Assembly (NCBI GenBank): GCA_030651375.1
Contig: JAUSFM010000006.1
Location: 12,646-76,645, forward strand
Length of the DNA: 64,000 nucleotides
Direction: 5' to 3'
From: Candidatus Woesearchaeota archaeon
GTDB taxonomy: Archaea > Nanobdellota > Nanobdellia > Woesearchaeales > UBA12501
Shown: positions 15,437-62,618 of the stretch, one piece after another
How the letters are laid out: each line of letters opens with the position of its first letter
How positions within the stretch are numbered: the stretch's first letter is position 1
Made by a program: the position numbers and the translations under genes
Notes under the pieces: generated by a model
What the model was told of the DNA's origin: nothing
The model's input: only the letters and a program-made list of their open reading frames with translations
The model's database searches: none

Positions 15437-15447
15437 CTATATATACC
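15437..15447. promoter_or_regulatory. Palindromic TATA box shared by divergent JAMM-like gene and tRNA-Arg
   Basis: CTATATATACC lies about 25-30 nt from both ATG 15418 (minus) and the tRNA 5' end at 15471 (plus). Confidence 0.45.
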
Positions 15448-22217: not shown

Positions 22218-24635
22218 CTATTCCCTCGTGTATCCTTCACCCAGCACGCGCTGGATTTCCTTTGCCTTCTTCTCACCTATCTTTTCCACGGTTTGCAGCT
22301 CGGGAATACTGGCGTTCATTATATTTTTTATGCTTCCAAAGCGTTCCAGCAGGGGTTTGCTGAGCTTCGGGCCGATGCCCGGAAGCGATGCAATGACATA
22401 CTCCTGCTGTTCTTTGGTCGTGAGTGGTTTTTTTGAATGGAGCGTGCCGTTCTTCATGCCCTCCATCTGCTCGCGCCGCGCAGTTACGGCAAGAATCGCA
22501 GCAGTATCCTTTGCGTTTTTGGTGTACAATATCGGTACGCCAAGCGTTACCGTAATCGTGCTCAACATGCCACGAATAGCATTCGGGTGGATGCTGCGCT
22601 GGGAATAGATATCCTCTTCCCCCTCGACAATCAGCAACGGGCGGTCATAGATTGTTTTCAGGGCAATAAGCTGGCTTAAAAGCCGGCCGTCAATGATTGA
22701 ATCAACAAAATCAGGCACGGTCTTAAACTCGACTGCGCATCGTGCGCTCAACACAAAATCGCCTGCCTCAAGCCGTCGGAGGCGTACCTTGATGTTCTTT
22801 TCCAAAAACTCTTTGACAATCTTCGAGCTCTTTTCGCGGTCATCAACCATAATCACCACATCGTTGCCGGTGCTGTCAACCAACAATTCATCGTGTTTTT
22901 TTTCTTTTTGGCCGAGCAGGTGTTCAATCTCAAGTTGTTTGAACACATTTTTTAATTCGCCCATGTTGCGCTGCATTCGCTTTTCTTTGTGAATGGCTGA
23001 CCAGCGGTAGGCCTCATCCCGCGTTCCTTTCGCCATCAACATGATCACACCGCCTTTTTCAAGCCTGCCAGTTCTCCCTCTCCGCTGGATATGGCGAATT
23101 GCTGATGGAATCGGCTCGTAGAAAATTACGTGGTCCACTGAAGGAATATCAATGCCCTCTTCGGCAACACTGGTTGCAATCAATGCGGTGAATACTCCTT
23201 CAGAGAATTGAATCAGCATCTGTTTCTGCTGTTTCTGGGAAAGGCCGATGCCTTTCTTTTTTGCTTGGCCAACAAAGATTTCTGATGAGATGTTCTCTGT
23301 ATCAAGCATCTTCTTAATTTTTGATGCAGTGTCGCGGTAATTCGTGAATATGATAATTCGCTTGCTTCCTTTCTCTTGTTGTTTGTGCAGAATTGTTTTC
23401 AGCGCCTCCATTTTCGGATGTTCGCTGTGCTGTTCGACCAGCGTACGCATCTTGGCGAGTGCTGTTTTGAATCGGGAATCTTCAACAAGGTTTTTGACTG
23501 CTCTCGTCGTGCTGGTTGCCGCCTGTTGCTGCAGCTTTTCCATATATCCAAAGGCCTGCTCAACTCCTTGGCTTTCCAGCATCTCAATCGCATGGTCCAC
23601 CTTCGTTGCTTCTGCGGCGAGCGAGATGCTTTTCAGAATGTTAAAATCCTTGTTTCCTTTTGCAATTTCACCATGGAGCGCACCTTGTAGACGCAGTAGC
23701 TCCGTCTTGCTTATCATGCTGGAGCTGGTGTTCAAATAGCCGAGCTGGCGTATTTCCTTCACCTTTTCTCCATGGCACTCCTTGAGTATTTTTTGAATTG
23801 CCGTATATTCTTCCGGCAGCGCGACCGGAACAACATCCATGCTAATGCTCTGCACATACGGTGCAACATCAGCGTCATGGTCGCTGCGCACTTCAGCGCC
23901 TTCAATGAACAGGTTTTGGCAGACCTCAATGATTCCTTCCTTGTCATTGCCCGGCGAGGCGGTCAGCCCAAGAATTTTTGGATACGATGCTTTTTTGATG
24001 TATTGTTCTGCAATAAATTTGTACGTATAGTTCCCGGTTGCGCGGTGGCACTCATCAAAAATTAAAAGACAGACATCTTTGAGGCTGATACGCTCATTGA
24101 TGATGTCATTTTCAACACCTTGGGGGGTTGAGAAAATGATTGTACTTGCTTTCCACAACTGCTCGCGCTTTTCCGGCTTGACAAAACCGGTAAAAACAGT
24201 CATATCTTTTTCTGGCAGGGTGCTGTATTTGAGAAATGATGCCTTATGCTGCTCTGCCAGCGGCCTCGTTGGCGCGAGGAAAAGAATTTTCGAGGTGGGA
24301 AATGATTTCAGCCGCTGGAGGGCAAGCATAAGCGCGATGGATGTTTTGCCGAGGCCCGTGGGGAGCACGACGAGCATATTTTTTTGAACACAGGTTGCCA
24401 AAATAGTTTGCTGGTATATTCTCGGCTCGAAATTGCGGATGGTTAACGGTTGGGAGTTTTGCGTTTGGAGTTCGCCATCGGTTGTACCTGGTTGCTGCTC
24501 TGGCATTAATGGTGCACGAAGCATTTCTGCAATTCTCTTTGCACCGATATCATCAGAAGCATCAGTCATGGTCATCCCTGTTCGTGGCACCAGATAGTAT
24601 GTTAAATCGCCTCTGTTTTCAAAGCTTTCGATCAT
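22218..24635 (-). CDS. hef: Hef helicase/nuclease (FANCM/XPF-like)
   Basis: SF2 helicase motifs LPTGLGKTS, IFDECHRA and QRRGRTGR. ERCC4 nuclease VMVDDREKSS...GDFVLS, and a C-terminal HhH2 (LPGIGPKLSKPLLERFGSIKNI). Confidence 0.88.
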   Translation of the reverse strand: MIESFENRGDLTYYLVPRTGMTMTDASDDIGAKRIAEMLRAPLMPEQQPGTTDGELQTQNSQPLTIRNFEPRIYQQTILATCVQKNMLVVLPTGLGKTSIALMLALQRLKSFPTSKILFLAPTRPLAEQHKASFLKYSTLPEKDMTVFTGFVKPEKREQLWKASTIIFSTPQGVENDIINERISLKDVCLLIFDECHRATGNYTYKFIAEQYIKKASYPKILGLTASPGNDKEGIIEVCQNLFIEGAEVRSDHDADVAPYVQSISMDVVPVALPEEYTAIQKILKECHGEKVKEIRQLGYLNTSSSMISKTELLRLQGALHGEIAKGNKDFNILKSISLAAEATKVDHAIEMLESQGVEQAFGYMEKLQQQAATSTTRAVKNLVEDSRFKTALAKMRTLVEQHSEHPKMEALKTILHKQQEKGSKRIIIFTNYRDTASKIKKMLDTENISSEIFVGQAKKKGIGLSQKQQKQMLIQFSEGVFTALIATSVAEEGIDIPSVDHVIFYEPIPSAIRHIQRRGRTGRLEKGGVIMLMAKGTRDEAYRWSAIHKEKRMQRNMGELKNVFKQLEIEHLLGQKEKKHDELLVDSTGNDVVIMVDDREKSSKIVKEFLEKNIKVRLRRLEAGDFVLSARCAVEFKTVPDFVDSIIDGRLLSQLIALKTIYDRPLLIVEGEEDIYSQRSIHPNAIRGMLSTITVTLGVPILYTKNAKDTAAILAVTARREQMEGMKNGTLHSKKPLTTKEQQEYVIASLPGIGPKLSKPLLERFGSIKNIMNASIPELQTVEKIGEKKAKEIQRVLGEGYTRE

Positions 24636-24695
24636 GGACGGCCTCTTTTTATATTTTGGAAAACTATTTATATCTCAATTACTTTTTTTTACTTT

Positions 24696-24736
24696 GCTCT
24701 GGACTTGGCGTTACCGCGTTATGCGGGCATTTTTTT
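24696..24736 (+). ncRNA. Short promoter-to-T-run unit A (putative about 35-nt sRNA)
   Basis: The 16-mer AAACTATTTATATCT (24661-24675) places a TATA centre 26 nt upstream of G24696. The unit reads GCTCTGGACTTGGCGTTA, then hairpin CCGC-GTTAT-GCGG, then T7. Confidence 0.3.
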
Positions 24737-24791
24737 CTTTTTTTCCTCTGTAAACAAAAACTATTTATATCTGAATCATTTTCTTATTATT

Positions 24792-24829
24792 GGTTCTGGA
24801 CCTCCCCCTGGTTGGGGATCGCTTTTTTT
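24792..24829 (+). ncRNA. Short promoter-to-T-run unit B (putative about 32-nt sRNA), antisense copy of tRNA-like gene 5' half
   Basis: An identical AAACTATTTATATCT box (24758-24772) places the TATA centre 26 nt upstream of G24792. GGTTCTGGACCTCCCCCT (24792-24809) is identical to 24928-24945. It is followed by hairpin CCCC-TGGTT-GGGG, ATCGC and T7. Confidence 0.35.
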
Positions 24830-24853
24830 CTTTTACATTTTTTTTGAACATAA

Positions 24854-24967
24854 CGCTGGCGCCGGGAATTTCACTCAACGGGAAACTCCCACAGAGGTTT
24901 GAACCCGGATACCCTTTCGGGATGGAGGTTCTGGACCTCCCCCTCAACCAGGTTGAAGATCGCCAGC
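24854..24967 (-). tRNA. Atypical type-II tRNA-like gene, anticodon CAG (Leu-like), 30-nt insertion in T-loop (24868-24897)
   Basis: Hand fold. Acceptor GCTGGCG/CGCCAGC, D arm CTTC-AACCTGGTT-GAGG, anticodon arm GGAGG-TCCAGAA-CCTCC, 15-nt variable arm, T arm CCGGG-TTCAAA[30 nt]T-CCCGG, discriminator G. TATA TTTATATA (24995-25002) lies about 30 nt upstream. Anomalies are C33, A37 and the insertion. Confidence 0.5.
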
Positions 24968-25021
24968 GTTACTTGTACTAAAAACTAATTCTGGTTTATA
25001 TACCTCACGCGCATCTGTCCA

Positions 25022-25101
25022 GTGTCCAGTGGTGGGGGGTTTTGGGGTTTTAGGCCTTGGGCATTTGGTTTATGGGGTTTATGGCGTGTCCAGTGGTGGG
25101 G
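25022..25101 (+). repeat. Two direct copies of GTGTCCAGTGGTGGGG (25022-25037, 25086-25101) in a G-run-rich spacer; ORB-like
   Basis: Exact 16-mer repeated 64 bp apart, plus an extra TGTCCAG half-copy at 25016-25022. Between the copies lie GGGGGGTTTTGGGGTTTTAGG and GGTTTATGGGGTTTATGG. Confidence 0.6.
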
Positions 25102-25160
25102 TTGGCGTTAAGATTGGATAAAAGGAAAAGCTAGTTAATCATCTCTCTTCTAAGAACTTC

Positions 25161-25664
25161 CTATGTTGATTCTAGATCCTGGTGGAAAATCACCGTTTTA
25201 CATGTGCGACAGCTGAGTTGCGCTTCAAAACCATAACTTCCTGTTTTCTCTGGCTGACCGACAACAATGCCCTTACACCCACTACAGTCATATGCAATAA
25301 CATCGGTTAAATCAATACCATCGGGAGTTCTTTCGTCCAGCACGAGCCCTATACCTTCCGATTCTTGCAGATGATACATCGGTAACTCTGGTGATCTGCT
25401 CCATGGTCCGACCCGTTTTCTGAGCTCATCAGTTGAGGCCACTATTGTTCCTTCAATGCCTGCAATCTGAGCTCGGGCAGGCGAAATATTCTCAACAGTA
25501 GGCGATTCTACAACAACGTCTGTCAAGCCTCTTGCTGCATACACTTTTAAGATATCGTTCGGATTTCCGGTTGCATAGCCGAGAACAGTATCCACCACAC
25601 CAGTTCTCTGTTGCGTGACAGCCCAGATAAGATACGGGTTATTTATTGTCCATTCTTTAGCCAT
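25161..25664 (-). CDS. Hypothetical protein with C-terminal CxxC...CxxC zinc ribbon
   Basis: ATG 25664 (MAKEWTINNPYL). C-terminus reads DCSGCKGIVVGQPEKTGSYGFEAQLSCRTCKTVIF. No family recognised. Confidence 0.5.
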   Translation of the reverse strand: MAKEWTINNPYLIWAVTQQRTGVVDTVLGYATGNPNDILKVYAARGLTDVVVESPTVENISPARAQIAGIEGTIVASTDELRKRVGPWSRSPELPMYHLQESEGIGLVLDERTPDGIDLTDVIAYDCSGCKGIVVGQPEKTGSYGFEAQLSCRTCKTVIFHQDLEST

Positions 25665-25768
25665 TAAATGCAGAATTCTCTGGTCATTAATAAAAATATA
25701 GGAAGTAAAGAACAACAATCTTTTTCACCCCCACAATCTTTTTATGTGTGCTCAGTTTCATTCGCACT

Positions 25769-61088: not shown

Positions 61089-61172
61089 CGCGGGCGTGCC
61101 GGAGCGGTCAAACGGGCTGGCTTCAGGAGCCAGTAGCTTAGTGCTTACGCAGGTTCGAGTCCTGCCGCCCGC
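61089..61172 (+). tRNA. tRNA-Leu(CAG), canonical type II
   Basis: Acceptor GCGGGCG/CGCCCGC, D arm CCG-GAGCGGTCAAA-CGG, anticodon arm CTGGC-TTCAGGA-GCCAG (U33, G37), 15-nt variable arm, T arm GCAGG-TTCGAGT-CCTGC, discriminator A. Confidence 0.9.
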
Positions 61173-61237
61173 ATATCTTTTTTATTCTCTCGTTTCTTTC
61201 CAAAAAGTATATAAACGAAGCAGCACTTTTTGCTGTT

Positions 61238-61507
61238 GGACAGGCTATGCCGGGAGGCTAGCTCTCTCCTGTTACCGAAAATGAGCTTTGTCGGGGCAGA
61301 AGCTGGCAAGCGGTGCCGCATGGCTGCACTGGTCCTGTTGGTGCCTATGAATTTCTGTCCTGCAGGACGGGTCCGTCGGGGAACCGTGTCAGGTCGGGAA
61401 CGAAGCAGCACTCACCTTTCGAATCAGTGCTTGCGGGGAAGCGGAAAGGAGAAGCCCACAGGGACGCTGGTGCAGTTGTTCCGCATCCATTGCTGGTGTG
61501 CCTGTCC
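61238..61507 (+). ncRNA. ffs: SRP RNA (7S RNA)
   Basis: The 5' GGACAGGC pairs with the 3' GCCTGTCC. Conserved helix-8 motif GTCAGGTCGGGAACGAAGCAGC with a GGAA tetraloop. TATA TATATAAA (61208-61215) lies about 25 nt upstream and a T-run follows directly. Confidence 0.8.
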
Positions 61508-61552: not shown

Positions 61553-61885
61553 ATGGCAACGATTGACGACTTTCAAAAGCTTGACATCCGCGTCGGAAAA
61601 ATTGTGCAGGTTGATGATTTTCCCGAAGCAAAGAAACCAGCGTACAAACTAAAAATCGATCTGGGAAAAGACATCGGGATTAAAGCATCCTGCGCCCAGC
61701 TGGTCGCGAATTATTCTAAAGAAGAACTGATGGGAAAACTCGTGCTGTGTGTGATGAATTTTCCCCCACGAAAAATCGGGCCAGCAGTATCAGACGTGCT
61801 GACGCTTGGCGTGCCGGATGAAAACGGAAATTGTATTCTGGTGGTGCCTGACAAAACAGTGCAGATTGGTGGACGGTTGTATTAA
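61553..61885 (+). CDS. csaA: tRNA-binding domain protein (CsaA/Trbp111-like)
   Basis: FQKLDIRVGKIVQVDDFPEAKKPAYKLKIDLG...LVLCVMNFPPRKIG. Start ATG 61553; the upstream part of the ORF covers the SRP RNA. Confidence 0.8.
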   Translation: MATIDDFQKLDIRVGKIVQVDDFPEAKKPAYKLKIDLGKDIGIKASCAQLVANYSKEELMGKLVLCVMNFPPRKIGPAVSDVLTLGVPDENGNCILVVPDKTVQIGGRLY

Positions 61886-61931: not shown

Positions 61932-62237
61932 ATGAAACTCCTCTTCATCTGCAACCAAAACAAGCACCGAAGTAAAACAGCCGAGAAGTTGTTTAAAGGC
62001 ACATTTGAAACAAAATCAGCAGGTCTCTACAATGAAAAGCCGGTGACTGCGCAGCAGCTGCGCTGGGCTGATGTCGTCGTCGTCATGGAAGACGCGCAAC
62101 GAACCGAACTATCGAAACGCTTTCCACAAGAATATCTCAAGAAACGTATTGTTTCTCTTGATATTCCGGACGTTTATTCGTATAATCAGCCACGCCTCAT
62201 TGCACTCCTTCAATCCCACTTACGACAGGTTTTGTAG
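61932..62237 (+). CDS. Low-molecular-weight protein-tyrosine phosphatase/ArsC-like
   Basis: CNQNKHRS (C-x5-R-S) P-loop near the N-terminus and a DIPD loop. Confidence 0.7.
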   Translation: MKLLFICNQNKHRSKTAEKLFKGTFETKSAGLYNEKPVTAQQLRWADVVVVMEDAQRTELSKRFPQEYLKKRIVSLDIPDVYSYNQPRLIALLQSHLRQVL

Positions 62238-62387
62238 CCATTCTTCAAGCTGTTTTTTTGCTTCATCTTTGTTTCTGAACATTTTTGTTTCAGCAACATG
62301 GAGTGCAGGAAGGCGCCGTGTCACCTTAAATAAGGCGCCACCATTTTTGAGCTCTTTGATTGAAATTTCCCATGCAAACATCTTCAT
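62220..62387 (-). CDS. Small hypothetical protein (55 aa)
   Basis: MKMFAWEISIKELKNGGALFKVTRRLPALHVAETKMFRNKDEAKKQLEEWLQNLS. Start trimmed because 62418-62444 belongs to the tRNA-like gene. Coding status is weakly supported. Confidence 0.3.
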   Translation of the reverse strand: MKMFAWEISIKELKNGGALFKVTRRLPALHVAETKMFRNKDEAKKQLEEWLQNLS

Positions 62388-62417
62388 CCCCTCGAAATTA
62401 TTGCACTCAAAAATAAA

Positions 62418-62537
62418 GCCGTCGGGGCTGGGATTTTCACCCAAGGAGTTAAAGCCTCCAAGAGATTTTGAACCCAGAGGTCCTTGCGGACAAGAGAGTC
62501 TGAGTCTCTTCCCTTACCTGATTAGGGTTACCGCGGC
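62418..62537 (-). tRNA. Second atypical type-II tRNA-like gene, anticodon CAG, 33-nt T-loop insertion (62434-62466), imperfect acceptor stem; possibly a pseudogene
   Basis: D arm CCCT-AATCAGGTA-AGGG, anticodon arm AGAGA-CTCAGAC-TCTCT, variable arm TGTCCGCAAGGACCT, T arm CTGGG-TTCAAA[33 nt]T-CCCAG. The 5' GCCGCGG pairs only imperfectly with the 3' CCCCGACGGC. TTTATTTTT follows. Confidence 0.35.
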
Positions 62538-62582
62538 ATGATGAACAAAAAGTTTATATATCTCTGTTCCATTTTACGTATC

Positions 62583-62618
62583 GGTCTGAGTCTCTTCCCT
62601 TCCTTTAGGGTTTTTTTT
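62583..62618 (+). ncRNA. Short promoter-to-T-run unit antisense to the 5' half of the 62418-62537 tRNA-like gene
   Basis: TATA TTTATATA (62553-62560) has its centre 26 nt upstream of G62583. GTCTGAGTCTCTTCCCTT (62584-62601) is identical to 62498-62515. Hairpin CCCT-TCCTTT-AGGG and T8 follow. Confidence 0.35.

What the first reader, a model, noticed from the sequence alone, without database searches (positions are those of the whole stretch)
24661..24829. Tandem mini-genes (BRE/TATA, about 32-36 nt, hairpin, T-run) whose 5' ends are antisense to the tRNA anticodon region
Seen: an identical 16-mer AAACTATTTATATCT occurs twice, 97 bp apart. In both cases the TATA centre is 26 nt upstream of a G that begins G(C/GT)TCTGGAC. 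Each unit then has a 4-bp hairpin and a T7 run. Unit B starts with an 18-nt exact antisense match to the neighbouring tRNA-like gene, covering its D-stem 3' side through the anticodon loop. It also carries a second 6-nt match (GATCGC). The same architecture recurs 37 kb away at 62553-62618 next to the second tRNA-like gene, so it is a recurring design rather than random debris. Inference: these may be small antisense RNAs targeting these tRNA-like transcripts, or relics of tRNA-targeted recombination that happen to keep promoters. The first TATA copy could alternatively serve hef on the opposite strand.
Basis: partly seen in the sequence, partly recalled or inferred. Interest (0 to 1): 0.65.

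Follow-up and report, generated by a model that had tools for sequence, protein, structure and literature searches.

The report
Antisense mini-genes paired with tRNA-like genes
In an uncultured groundwater DPANN archaeon, several odd intron-containing tRNA-like genes each sit beside a tiny promoter-to-terminator gene whose roughly 35-nt RNA would pair with that tRNA-like RNA's anticodon arm; the two change together between copies and species, which suggests an undescribed RNA-RNA control module, though no transcript has been seen.

Summary
The window comes from a groundwater DPANN (Woesearchaeota-like) archaeon. The "tRNA-like genes" on the minus strand (24854-24967, 62420-62537) are well-folded cloverleaves. 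Each has a long variable arm, G73 and a bulge-helix-bulge intron at T-loop position 59/60. Their anticodons are CAG or GAA; the window also holds a normal tRNA-Leu(CAG). At least five such genes lie in this genome.

Mini-units A, B and C belong to a family of at least 14 units in 9 loci. Every unit has a BRE/TATA box 29-31 nt before its first G, the same spacing as the SRP RNA gene. Next come a 14-18 nt seed antisense to an anticodon arm, a GC hairpin and an oligo-T run (missing in 2 units).

Identity to the cognate gene begins at the predicted start site. Seeds track their partner's arm across eight distinct pairs, including two loop substitutions mirrored between orthologues. Between strains, arm and seed are swapped together. 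Canonical tRNAs have no such copies. The modules are patchy and carry no integrase.

Best reading: cognate antisense sRNA and tRNA-like RNA pairs, in which the sRNA masks the anticodon arm. No RNA data exist, so transcription and function are inferred.

The parts
24660..24675 (+). BRE/TATA of unit A (AAAACTATTTATATCT). Read in reverse, the same TATA lies 39 nt from the hef ATG, so it is probably bidirectional.
24696..24736 (+). Unit A predicted sRNA: seed GCUCUGGACUUGGCG (24696-24710), hairpin CCGC/GCGG (24714-24726) and U7 (24730-24736). It is an orphan: no cognate tRNA-like gene was found in the sequence held.
   Evidence: The seed is identical in L026, whose Hef is 77% identical, while the spacer has diverged.
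24757..24772 (+). BRE/TATA of unit B. No other gene lies downstream of it in either direction.
24792..24829 (+). Unit B predicted sRNA: an 18-nt seed (24792-24809) antisense to tRNA-like1 nt 24-41, hairpin CCCC/GGGG, AUCGC antisense to acceptor nt 5-9, and U7 (24823-24829).
24854..24967 (-). tRNA-like1: 7-bp acceptor, D arm, anticodon arm GGAGG-UCCAGAA-CCUCC (24924-24940; CAG with C33 and A37), long variable arm, T arm and G73.
24868..24897 (-). 30-nt bulge-helix-bulge intron in the T loop (position 59/60) of tRNA-like1.
   Evidence: A UUCA/UGAA 4-bp helix is flanked by 3-nt bulges. The inner hairpin varies in sequence between members but stays base-paired.
24995..25002 (-). TATA box upstream of tRNA-like1; G1 is the 36th nt from it. 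The box is shared with a multi-copy plus-strand promoter element.
62420..62537 (-). tRNA-like2: anticodon arm AGAGA-CUCAGAC-UCUCU (62493-62509; CAG) and a T-loop intron at 62434-62466. In this strain the acceptor stem has 2 mismatches (C2-A71 and C5-C68). It is intact in the sister strain L010.
62550..62562 (.). A single TATA region between tRNA-like2 (minus strand) and unit C (plus strand), giving a divergent arrangement.
62583..62618 (+). Unit C predicted sRNA: an 18-nt seed (62584-62601) antisense to tRNA-like2 nt 23-40, hairpin CCCU/AGGG and U8 (62611-62618).
   Evidence: There is no substitution against the L010/X2 strain, while the spacer and the downstream flank changed.

Best explanation
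Each mini-unit is a small independent gene: BRE/TATA promoter, start at a G, oligo-T terminator. Each would give an sRNA of about 30-45 nt.

The sRNA's single-stranded 5' seed of 14-18 nt is complementary to part of one particular tRNA-like RNA. It covers the 5' strand of the anticodon stem, the whole anticodon loop and 2-4 nt beyond. A short 3' segment (AUCGCC) is often complementary to acceptor nt 4-9 as well.

The partners are an accessory, multi-copy family of tRNA-shaped RNAs, not the cell's normal decoders. They share a BHB intron at 59/60, a long variable arm, G73 and NAG or GAA anticodons.

The proposed mechanism has three steps. Pairing starts at the pre-structured anticodon loop. It then invades the stem. 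The result masks or unfolds the tRNA-like RNA and so neutralises or regulates it. Sequence differences in arm and seed make each pair specific to itself. Arm and seed are inherited and exchanged together as a cassette.

Shown: the anatomy, the conservation, the covariation and the specificity in silico. Inferred: transcription of the units, pairing in vivo, and its consequence.
For: 1. Organism and setting. The source is a DPANN archaeon: the best Hef matches are Woesearchaeota and Nanoarchaeia MAGs, and the runs holding the sequence are groundwater metagenomes.

2. The tRNA-like fold is under selection. Of 278 cells, 98.6% are paired. 15 of 31 pairs show changes on both sides, including all 5 anticodon-stem pairs. 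No shuffle in 500 reached this, and slid controls gave 40-52%.

3. The intron is credible. After the 59/60 intron is removed in silico, ARAGORN of 8 members as tRNA: Leu-cag for 3 and Phe-gaa for 3. The same BHB intron type occurs in ordinary tRNA-Glu and tRNA-Pro genes of other archaea.

4. Promoter spacing. In 14 of 14 units the first T of the TATA 8-mer lies 29-31 nt before the first G of the seed. The SRP RNA gene has the same spacing.

5. Homology starts at the start site. In 9 of 9 cognate units, identity to the antisense tRNA-like gene begins 27-31 nt after the TATA start, which is at the predicted transcription start. The promoter spacer is unrelated to the tRNA-like gene.

6. Terminators. 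12 of 14 units end in an oligo-T run, mostly TTTTTTTCTTTT.

7. Eight distinct cognate pairs share 10-19 nt of exact identity although the arms differ. They are like1/B, like2/C, L011, L014, L019 with L025, L024, an X1 contig and an X2 contig.

8. Single-base covariation. The window loop UCCAGAA and the L024 loop UUCAGAG differ at two positions. The adjacent units carry the same two changes.

9. Specificity in silico. Cognate duplex energies are -39 to -63 kcal/mol, against -17 to -40 for most non-cognate pairs; the exceptions are B-type units against the similar GGAGG-type arms of like1, L011 and L024.

10. Orphan seed A is identical in the window and in L026 although the spacer between TATA and start has diverged. 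The B-type hairpin shows a compensatory CCCC/GGGG to CCGC/GCGG change.

11. Controls. Canonical tRNAs have no flanking self-copies. No integrase or transposase lies near any locus; the flanks are hef, enolase, a phosphatase and an LTD protein.
Against: - No transcript evidence exists. Only DNA runs hold the locus. One metatranscriptome contains this organism's SRP RNA but has no contig on either locus. Contig-level data would not capture 35-nt RNAs in any case.
- TATA boxes are nearly symmetric. Some also sit at promoter distance from hef or from the tRNA-like gene, so part of the promoter signal could belong to neighbouring genes.
- Two units (L019 u2 and L025 u2) lack a T-run.
- Some units are orphans: A-type, L024 u2, and B-type in L019, L025 and L026. 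No target is known for them.
- Arm-and-seed identity could be maintained by gene conversion or cassette exchange rather than by selection on pairing.
- In the minimum-free-energy fold, the seeds of units B and L011u are partly base-paired.
Confidence: 0.55

Rival explanations
1. The units are non-functional debris. On this view they are partial tandem duplications or recombination scars of the 5' half of the tRNA-like genes, for example from repeated cassette replacement or site-specific recombination. They would lie next to AT-rich, TATA-like sequence by accident.
For: - The units are direct DNA repeats of the gene interior.
- The region from the V arm to the unit terminator is replaced wholesale between strains.
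- Units accumulate in tandem, two or three per hef locus, including non-cognate ones.
- Two units lack terminators.
Against: - The TATA-to-seed distance is 29-31 nt in 14 of 14 units although the promoter and spacer sequences differ.
- The homology border coincides with the predicted start site in 9 of 9 cognate units.
- The D arm is replaced by a shorter, stronger hairpin that shows compensatory change.
- The oligo-T run is kept in 12 of 14 units, mostly as T7CT4.
- The orphan seed A is unchanged across species while its spacer diverged.
- There is no integrase, and canonical tRNAs lack such scars.
Confidence: 0.13
2. The copies act in the sense orientation, as part of the tRNA-like precursor. 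They would form a 5' leader in the divergent loci and a 3' trailer at the hef locus. A decoy 5' half could, for example, pair with the 3' half or with the antisense transcript during maturation.
For: - tRNA-like1 and its orthologues lack a strong T-run after their 3' end (GTTATGTTC followed by A-runs). Read-through into the sense copy of unit B is therefore plausible.
- Leader and trailer extend the acceptor helix: AAC pairs with GUU, and CAC with GUG.
Against: - The position flips between loci, upstream in some and downstream in others.
- The sense copies are preceded by A7 runs and have no promoter at consistent spacing. The antisense direction has both a promoter and a terminator.
- The copies lack acceptor nt 1-3.
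Confidence: 0.08
3. The units are silent DNA donor cassettes for switching the anticodon arm of the tRNA-like gene by gene conversion. This would resemble pilS/pilE-type variation, with no RNA role for the units.
For: - Orthologous tRNA-like genes keep the same scaffold but carry entirely different anticodon arms. Each arm matches one of the local units.
- L025 carries two cognate copies and one non-cognate copy.
Against: - On the seed's 5' side, homology ends 2-4 nt past the loop, so a conversion tract has no second homology arm.
- Silent cassettes would not need precisely spaced promoters and terminators.
Confidence: 0.08
4. The sRNAs are real, but their main targets are other RNAs such as mRNAs. 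The tRNA-like RNAs would then be sponges or decoys that titrate the sRNAs, by analogy with the bacterial 3'ETS-leuZ sponge.
For: - Orphan units have conserved seeds.
- tRNA-derived sponges are known in bacteria (my own knowledge).
Against: - No other site with at most one mismatch to any seed exists in the window or in the loci fetched by that point, L001-L026.
- Seeds diverge freely as long as the neighbouring arm follows, which is hard to reconcile with fixed third-party targets.
Confidence: 0.08

Closest known systems
Antisense RNA and target pairs of plasmid copy control and type I toxin-antitoxin systems (ColE1 RNA I/RNA II, CopA/CopT, hok/Sok)
   Same: - A short, untranslated antisense RNA with a terminator hairpin and U tail.
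- Recognition starts at a 7-nt, U-turn-type loop of the target.
- Small sequence changes create new specificity groups.
- The modules are multi-copy and patchily distributed.
   Different: - The target here is a tRNA-shaped non-coding RNA, not an mRNA or a primer.
- The antisense gene is a separate neighbouring copy rather than overlapping its target.
- The promoter and terminator are archaeal.
- No protein toxin is present.
Type VIII RNA-RNA toxin-antitoxin pairs (CreT/CreA of haloarchaea; SdsR/RyeA). Cited from my own knowledge.
   Same: Both partners are RNAs, the system occurs in archaea, and its toxicity is linked to tRNA.
   Different: - CreA acts through Cascade on the creT promoter.
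- CreT is a mini-mRNA that sequesters a rare tRNA.
- Here there is no CRISPR context, and the complementarity is direct, RNA to RNA.
allo-tRNAs (Mukai et al. 2017, PMC5389517) and nematode V-arm 'nev-tRNAs'
   Same: - tRNAs with a long V arm and G73, which are serine-type identity elements, but with non-serine anticodons including Leu.
- They are discussed as missense suppressors or regulatory RNAs, and some are associated with toxin-antitoxin loci.
   Different: - allo-tRNAs are bacterial and are defined by an 8/4 or 9/3 acceptor/T geometry. These genes are archaeal and 7/5.
- These genes carry a 59/60 BHB intron.
- Their anticodons are restricted to NAG and GAA.
- Each has a dedicated antisense partner.
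Split tRNA genes of Nanoarchaeum equitans
   Same: The lineage is DPANN. A tRNA piece that ends in the anticodon region has a promoter of its own.
   Different: - The units read antisense to the tRNA.
- They lack acceptor nt 1-3 and have no complementary leader or trailer.
- An intact full-length gene lies next to each of them.
tRNA-gene att-site duplications left by integrative elements
   Same: A direct repeat of part of a tRNA gene lies beside the intact gene.
   Different: - No integrase or cargo is present.
- The repeat is an internal 5' segment.
- It is bounded by a promoter and a terminator at fixed spacing.
Non-canonical BHB tRNA introns (T-loop position 59/60) of Thermoproteales and DPANN
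   Same: The intron in the tRNA-like genes fits the hBHBh' motif. The same type is found in ordinary tRNA-Glu and tRNA-Pro genes.
   Different: None for the intron itself. It explains why tRNA finders miss these genes.

Membership tests
tRNA (Rfam RF00005 / ARAGORN) | Scores above threshold as a cloverleaf with a 7-nt anticodon loop and a T loop | tested here: inconclusive
   The unspliced genes are not called. After in-silico removal of the 59/60 intron, 6 of 8 are called. like1 (C33) and L014 (loop-closing mismatch) are not.
tRNA (functional decoder) | Canonical loop: U33, and the purine 37 expected for the codon class (G37 for anticodons ending in G36 and for Phe) | tested here: not met
   like1 has C33. 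All CAG members have A37, whereas the genome's own tRNA-Leu(CAG) has G37. The GAA members have A37 or C37.
Archaeal tRNA-Leu | Discriminator A73 together with a long variable arm | tested here: not met
   All nine family members have G73. The window's canonical tRNA-Leu has A73.
tRNA-Ser-type identity (SerRS substrates) | Long variable arm plus G73; the anticodon is not recognised | tested here: met
   Sequence features are present in all members. Aminoacylation itself cannot be tested with these tools.
allo-tRNA | 8/4 or 9/3 acceptor/T-stem geometry | tested here: not met
   The geometry is a 7-bp acceptor and a 5-bp T stem, supported by covariation.
tRNA-Sec | UCA anticodon, 9/4 geometry and a long D stem | tested here: not met
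   The Rfam tRNA-Sec model scores 16 bits against a gathering threshold of 47. The anticodons are CAG and GAA.
BHB-intron-containing pre-tRNA | Two 3-nt bulges separated by a 4-bp helix, flanked by helices, with splicing restoring a 7-nt T loop | tested here: met
   The UUCA/UGAA helix is invariant or changes to a G-U wobble. The bulges are AAN and AUU/AAU. The inner hairpin varies in sequence but stays paired. The spliced loop is UUCAAAU.
Independent archaeal transcription unit (sRNA gene) | BRE/TATA about 26 nt (centre) upstream of a purine start, and an oligo-T terminator | tested here: met
   14 of 14 units have the spacing and 12 of 14 have a T-run of at least 5. Actual transcription was not tested.
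Antisense sRNA and target pair | Extended complementarity that is maintained by covariation | tested here: met
   Eight distinct cognate pairs, plus mirrored substitutions between the window and L024.
Antisense sRNA and target pair | Both RNAs are expressed and interact in vivo | not testable with these tools
   No small-RNA data exist. The metatranscriptome X11 was uninformative.
Split tRNA half gene | Sense-strand half with a complete acceptor strand and a complementary leader or trailer | tested here: not met
   The units lack acceptor nt 1-3. Their promoter and terminator are on the opposite strand.
Integrative-element att duplication | An integrase or element cargo lies between or beside the repeats | tested here: not met
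   The flanks are housekeeping genes. No integrase domain was found in the proteins scanned.
Box C/D guide sRNA | C (RUGAUGA) and D (CUGA) boxes flanking the guide | tested here: not met
   No unit has a C box. The only Rfam hint, sR3 at 10 bits, lies upstream of unit C.

The most novel reading that the evidence does not exclude
The tRNA-like RNAs may be serine-type tRNAs, with a V arm and G73, that carry Leu (CAG, GAG) or Phe (GAA) anticodons. Once spliced and charged, they would insert a polar residue at hydrophobic codons and so act as RNA toxins. Each neighbouring sRNA would be the matching RNA antitoxin, masking the anticodon. This would be an all-RNA toxin-antitoxin or abortive-infection module based on controlled mistranslation. 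Orphan sRNAs would act as anti-addiction elements, and decayed toxins would be expected, such as tRNA-like2 in this window with its broken acceptor stem.
Probability: 0.12. Interest if true: 0.92.

Novelty: new variant of a known kind. Interest (0 to 1): 0.78.

Why it matters
If the units are transcribed, this would be, as far as my literature searches show, the first case of dedicated antisense RNA genes whose targets are tRNA-shaped RNAs. Specificity would be written in the anticodon arm.

It would add a new class of RNA-RNA module to archaea. It would also show that DPANN genomes of about 1 Mb hold at least five extra tRNA-like genes that standard tRNA finders miss.

It would give a concrete system for three questions:
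- whether cells keep potentially mis-decoding tRNAs under RNA control;
- how cognate RNA pairs diversify, given that arm and seed are exchanged here as a cassette;
- what V-arm/G73 tRNAs with non-serine anticodons are for, a question left open since the allo-tRNA work.

Tried and rejected
- **Rfam and ARAGORN on the raw loci.** Neither gave a family call. The only hints were tRNA-Sec at 16 bits and chance lncRNA or sR3 matches.
- **Viral contig scan for the T-loop-intron pattern.** It found nothing.
- **Hef loci at 46-54% identity (L001-L007).** The covariance model found no tRNA-like gene and ARAGORN found no tRNA. The loci at 64-72% (L021, L023) also have none.
- **LTD-gene neighbours in relatives (L027, L028).** The module is absent there.
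- **RNA evidence.** No RNA run holds locus 1. One metatranscriptome holds this organism's SRP RNA but nothing on either locus.
- **Other targets for the seeds.** None was found with at most one mismatch in the sequence then held.
- **Box C/D guide, split tRNA half, att scar, tRNA-Sec and allo-tRNA.** Each fails a defining feature (see the membership test).
- **Coding potential of the overlapping ORFs** (24482-24847 and others). I rejected it: the orthologous intergenic alignment is full of indels that are not multiples of three.
- **Literature.** Five full-text searches and two papers read found no description of such pairs.
Full report
**1. Observation**

- AAACTATTTATATCT occurs exactly twice in 64 kb, at 24661 and 24758, where 0.09 matches are expected.
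- The identical stretch is the 16-mer AAAACTATTTATATCT. It heads a 45-nt direct repeat that is 80% identical and 97 bp apart.
- Each copy is followed 30 nt after the first T of TTTATATC by a G, at 24696 and 24792. Then come a 4-bp GC hairpin and a T7 run.
- Unit B starts with 18 nt identical to the plus strand of the neighbouring minus-strand gene. It is therefore antisense to that gene's nt 24-41.
- Unit C at 62583-62618 does the same for the second gene: 18 nt antisense to nt 23-40.
- Canonical tRNA-Arg and tRNA-Leu in the window, and tRNA-Met in L011, have no such flanking self-copies.

**2. Organism and context**

- The 805-aa minus-strand ORF at 22218-24635 is Hef: helicase, ERCC4 and HhH domains.
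- Its nearest relatives in species-representative genomes are Woesearchaeota and Nanoarchaeia MAGs at 46-54% identity.
- The window is held almost completely (0.99 of sampled words) by one groundwater metagenome run, and less completely by other groundwater and freshwater runs.
- It is therefore an uncultured DPANN archaeon with 48.7% G+C.
- The flanking genes at all loci are ordinary: hef, RPA, enolase, a histidine phosphatase and an LTD protein. No integrase was seen.

**3. The 'tRNA-like genes'**

ARAGORN and Rfam do not call them. The two copies in the window align at 76% identity with the same design:
- a 7-bp acceptor stem, a D arm and an anticodon arm;
- a long variable arm and a T arm;
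- G at the discriminator position;
- a 29-37 nt insertion inside the T loop.

The insertion fits the archaeal bulge-helix-bulge (BHB) motif.
- T-loop UUCA pairs with UGAA at the 3' end of the insert, forming the 4-bp helix.
- This helix is flanked by 3-nt bulges, AAN and AUU/AAU.
- An inner hairpin differs in sequence between members but stays base-paired.
- Cutting in the bulges restores the loop UUCAAAU, so this is an intron at position 59/60.

A metagenome scan for this T-loop pattern returned 11 hits:
- the same two loci from a sister strain (L013, L010);
- two further family members (L011, L014);
- ordinary tRNA-Glu and tRNA-Pro genes of other archaea carrying the same intron type (L008, L012, L016, L017, L018);
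- two that looked like chance matches in G+C-rich contigs (L009, L015).

A covariance model built on the family aligned nine members.
- 98.6% of 278 cells form standard pairs.
- 15 of 31 pairs change on both sides, including all five anticodon-stem pairs.
- None of 500 shuffles reached this. Slid controls gave 40-52%.

After in-silico splicing, ARAGORN calls three members tRNA-Leu(cag) and three tRNA-Phe(gaa). like1 (C33) and L014 (loop-closing mismatch) are not called.

They differ from the genome's real tRNA-Leu(CAG) at 61090-61173. That gene has A73 and G37. The family has G73, and A37 or C37.

Contigs at the window genome's depth show three more paralogues, so at least five exist in one genome. 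A sister strain adds a member with a GAG-type loop.

**4. The units are a family with a fixed design**

I collected 14 units from 9 loci:
- window loci 1 and 2;
- strain copy L010;
- paralogous loci L011 and L014;
- hef-locus orthologues L019, L024, L025 and L026, from species whose Hef is 77-79% identical.

The design is the same throughout.
- Every unit has an A-rich BRE and a TATA 8-mer whose first base lies 29-31 nt before the first G of the seed. The SRP RNA gene of the window has its TATA at the same distance from its mature 5' end.
- In all nine units with a cognate gene beside them, identity to the antisense of that gene begins 27-31 nt after the TATA start. That is at the predicted transcription start. 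The spacer in front is unrelated to the tRNA-like gene and differs between units.
- After the seed comes a 4-7 bp GC hairpin. It stands where the D arm would be but has a different, shorter sequence. One clear compensatory change is CCCC/GGGG to CCGC/GCGG in L026.
- Usually AUCGC(C) follows, antisense to acceptor nt 4-9.
- An oligo-T run closes the unit, mostly TTTTTTTCTTTT. Only L019 u2 and L025 u2 lack it.
- On the other strand the copies are preceded by A-runs and have no consistently placed promoter.

**5. Covariation of seed and arm**

Eight different arm sequences each have a neighbouring unit with the matching seed, with 10-19 nt of exact identity.

| Locus | Anticodon arm or loop |
|---|---|
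| like1 | GGAGG-UCCAGAA |
| like2 | AGAGA-CUCAGAC |
| L011 | GGAGG-CUGAACC |
| L014 | AGAGC-GUCAGAA |
| L019 and L025 | GACAG-CUGAAAC |
| L024 | GGAGG-UUCAGAG |
| X1 contig | GGAGU-UUCAGAC |
| X2 contig | loop GUGAGAA |

- Between the window and L024, the orthologous genes differ by two loop substitutions. The adjacent units carry the same two.
- In L019 and L025 the scaffold of the orthologous gene is conserved but the whole arm is different. A unit with the new seed sits next to it.
- Cognate duplex energies are -39 to -63 kcal/mol, against -17 to -40 for most other combinations. The exceptions are B-type units against the similar GGAGG-type arms of like1, L011 and L024.
- No other site with at most one mismatch to any seed exists in the DNA held at that point.

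**6. Evolutionary behaviour**

- Units can be divergent from their gene around one TATA (like2, L011, L014), or convergent and downstream of it (the hef locus).
- The hef locus holds two or three units per species. Some are non-cognate ('orphan').
- The A-type seed GCUCUGGACUUGGCG is identical in the window and in L026 although the spacer has diverged. A B-type unit is present in all five species.
- The module is missing next to hef in relatives at 64-72% Hef identity. It is also missing next to the LTD gene in relatives.
- Between two strains, one locus keeps the 3' third of the tRNA-like gene and the DNA beyond the unit terminator. The stretch from the V arm to the unit (171 nt) is replaced by 384 other letters. 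Arm and seed thus travel together as a cassette.
- In this window tRNA-like2 has two acceptor mismatches, confirmed in an independent assembly of a run holding nearly all of the window. The sister strain is intact, and unit C is unchanged.

**7. Interpretation**

The simplest reading is that the units are genes for sRNAs of about 30-45 nt. Each would pair with the anticodon loop and 5' stem, and partly with the acceptor 5' strand, of one cognate tRNA-like RNA. This would mask or unfold it.

I regard the transcription-unit status and the cognate-pair relationship as well supported by comparative evidence. Both remain unproven, because there are no small-RNA data.

What the tRNA-like RNAs do is unknown. 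These features argue that they are accessory rather than normal decoders:
- G73 with a long V arm, which are serine-type identity elements (established knowledge; see also PMC5389517);
- NAG or GAA anticodons;
- an atypical position 37, and C33 in like1;
- multi-copy, patchy distribution;
- orphan partners and a decayed copy.

This pattern resembles toxin-antitoxin dynamics, which motivates the novel case. I give that case low probability.

**8. Rivals**

- **Pure recombination debris.** It does not explain the fixed promoter spacing, the start-site and homology coincidence, the terminators, or the conservation of the orphan seed.
- **Sense-strand leader or trailer role.** It is weakened by the flipped positions and by the signals lying on the other strand.
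- **Silent donor cassettes.** They lack a second homology arm and would not need promoters.
- **The tRNA-like RNA as a sponge for the sRNA.** This remains possible, but no third-party targets were seen.

**9. Comparison with known systems**

The design works like antisense control pairs (ColE1 RNA I/II, CopA/CopT, hok/Sok). If toxic, it would work like type VIII RNA-RNA toxin-antitoxin pairs.

The tRNA-like partner resembles allo-tRNAs in its identity elements but fails their defining 8/4 or 9/3 geometry.

It is not any of the following:
- a split tRNA;
- an att scar;
- a C/D guide;
- tRNA-Sec.

Five literature searches and two papers read found no description of such pairs.

**10. Verdict**

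The feature appears undescribed and is of high interest, pending expression data.

Noticed in passing
window 24991-25053: A multi-copy element: TTTATATACCTCACGCGCATCTGTCCAGTG followed by repeats of GTCCAGTG. Summed contig depth reaches 472 against 14.7 for the genome, which is roughly 30 copies, some of them in other organisms. Assemblies break here. The element is conserved upstream of tRNA-like1 in L019, L024 and L025. In L023 it sits between hef and the DUF2238 gene. It looks like a shared promoter and 5' region, or a regulator site. The tRNA-Arg promoter at 15438 shares TATATACCTCACG.
   Followed up: partly
window 25047-25730: About 680 nt, including a 185-aa minus-strand ORF (25161-25718) with no Pfam match, are present in the window. 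The sister strain L013 has only 93 nt in their place. This is a strain-specific insertion next to the locus.
   Followed up: partly
window 61553-61885 and 61932-62237: A tRNA_bind (CsaA/Trbp111-like) protein gene and a low-molecular-weight phosphatase gene lie between the SRP RNA gene and tRNA-like2. In the relative L028 the LTD gene lies about 70 nt from the SRP RNA gene, so this whole block, including the module, is not at that position in L028.
   Followed up: partly
window 61214-61227 vs 61398-61411: The spacer between the TATA box and the 5' end of the SRP RNA gene holds an exact 14-nt direct copy (AACGAAGCAGCACT) of an internal SRP RNA segment. The chance expectation is about 5e-4. It is unexplained.
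   Followed up: no
window 62236-62409: A 174-nt stretch that is absent from strain L010. It holds a possible 74-aa minus-strand ORF (62220-62444) with no Pfam match, which abuts the 3' end of tRNA-like2.
   Followed up: no
L011 1215-1345; L014 275-408: A conserved region of about 150 nt rich in CCGGAA/TTCCGG inverted repeats lies just beyond the unit in both paralogous loci. A TATA-like box precedes it and T7-8 ends it. It may be another structured small RNA gene. Rfam has no match.
   Followed up: partly
L008, L012, L016, L017, L018: Ordinary tRNA-Glu(UUC) and tRNA-Pro(UGG) genes of other uncultured archaea carry the same 59/60 BHB intron, with conserved CUCU and GGGUGAAA flanks. ARAGORN misses several of them.
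   Followed up: partly
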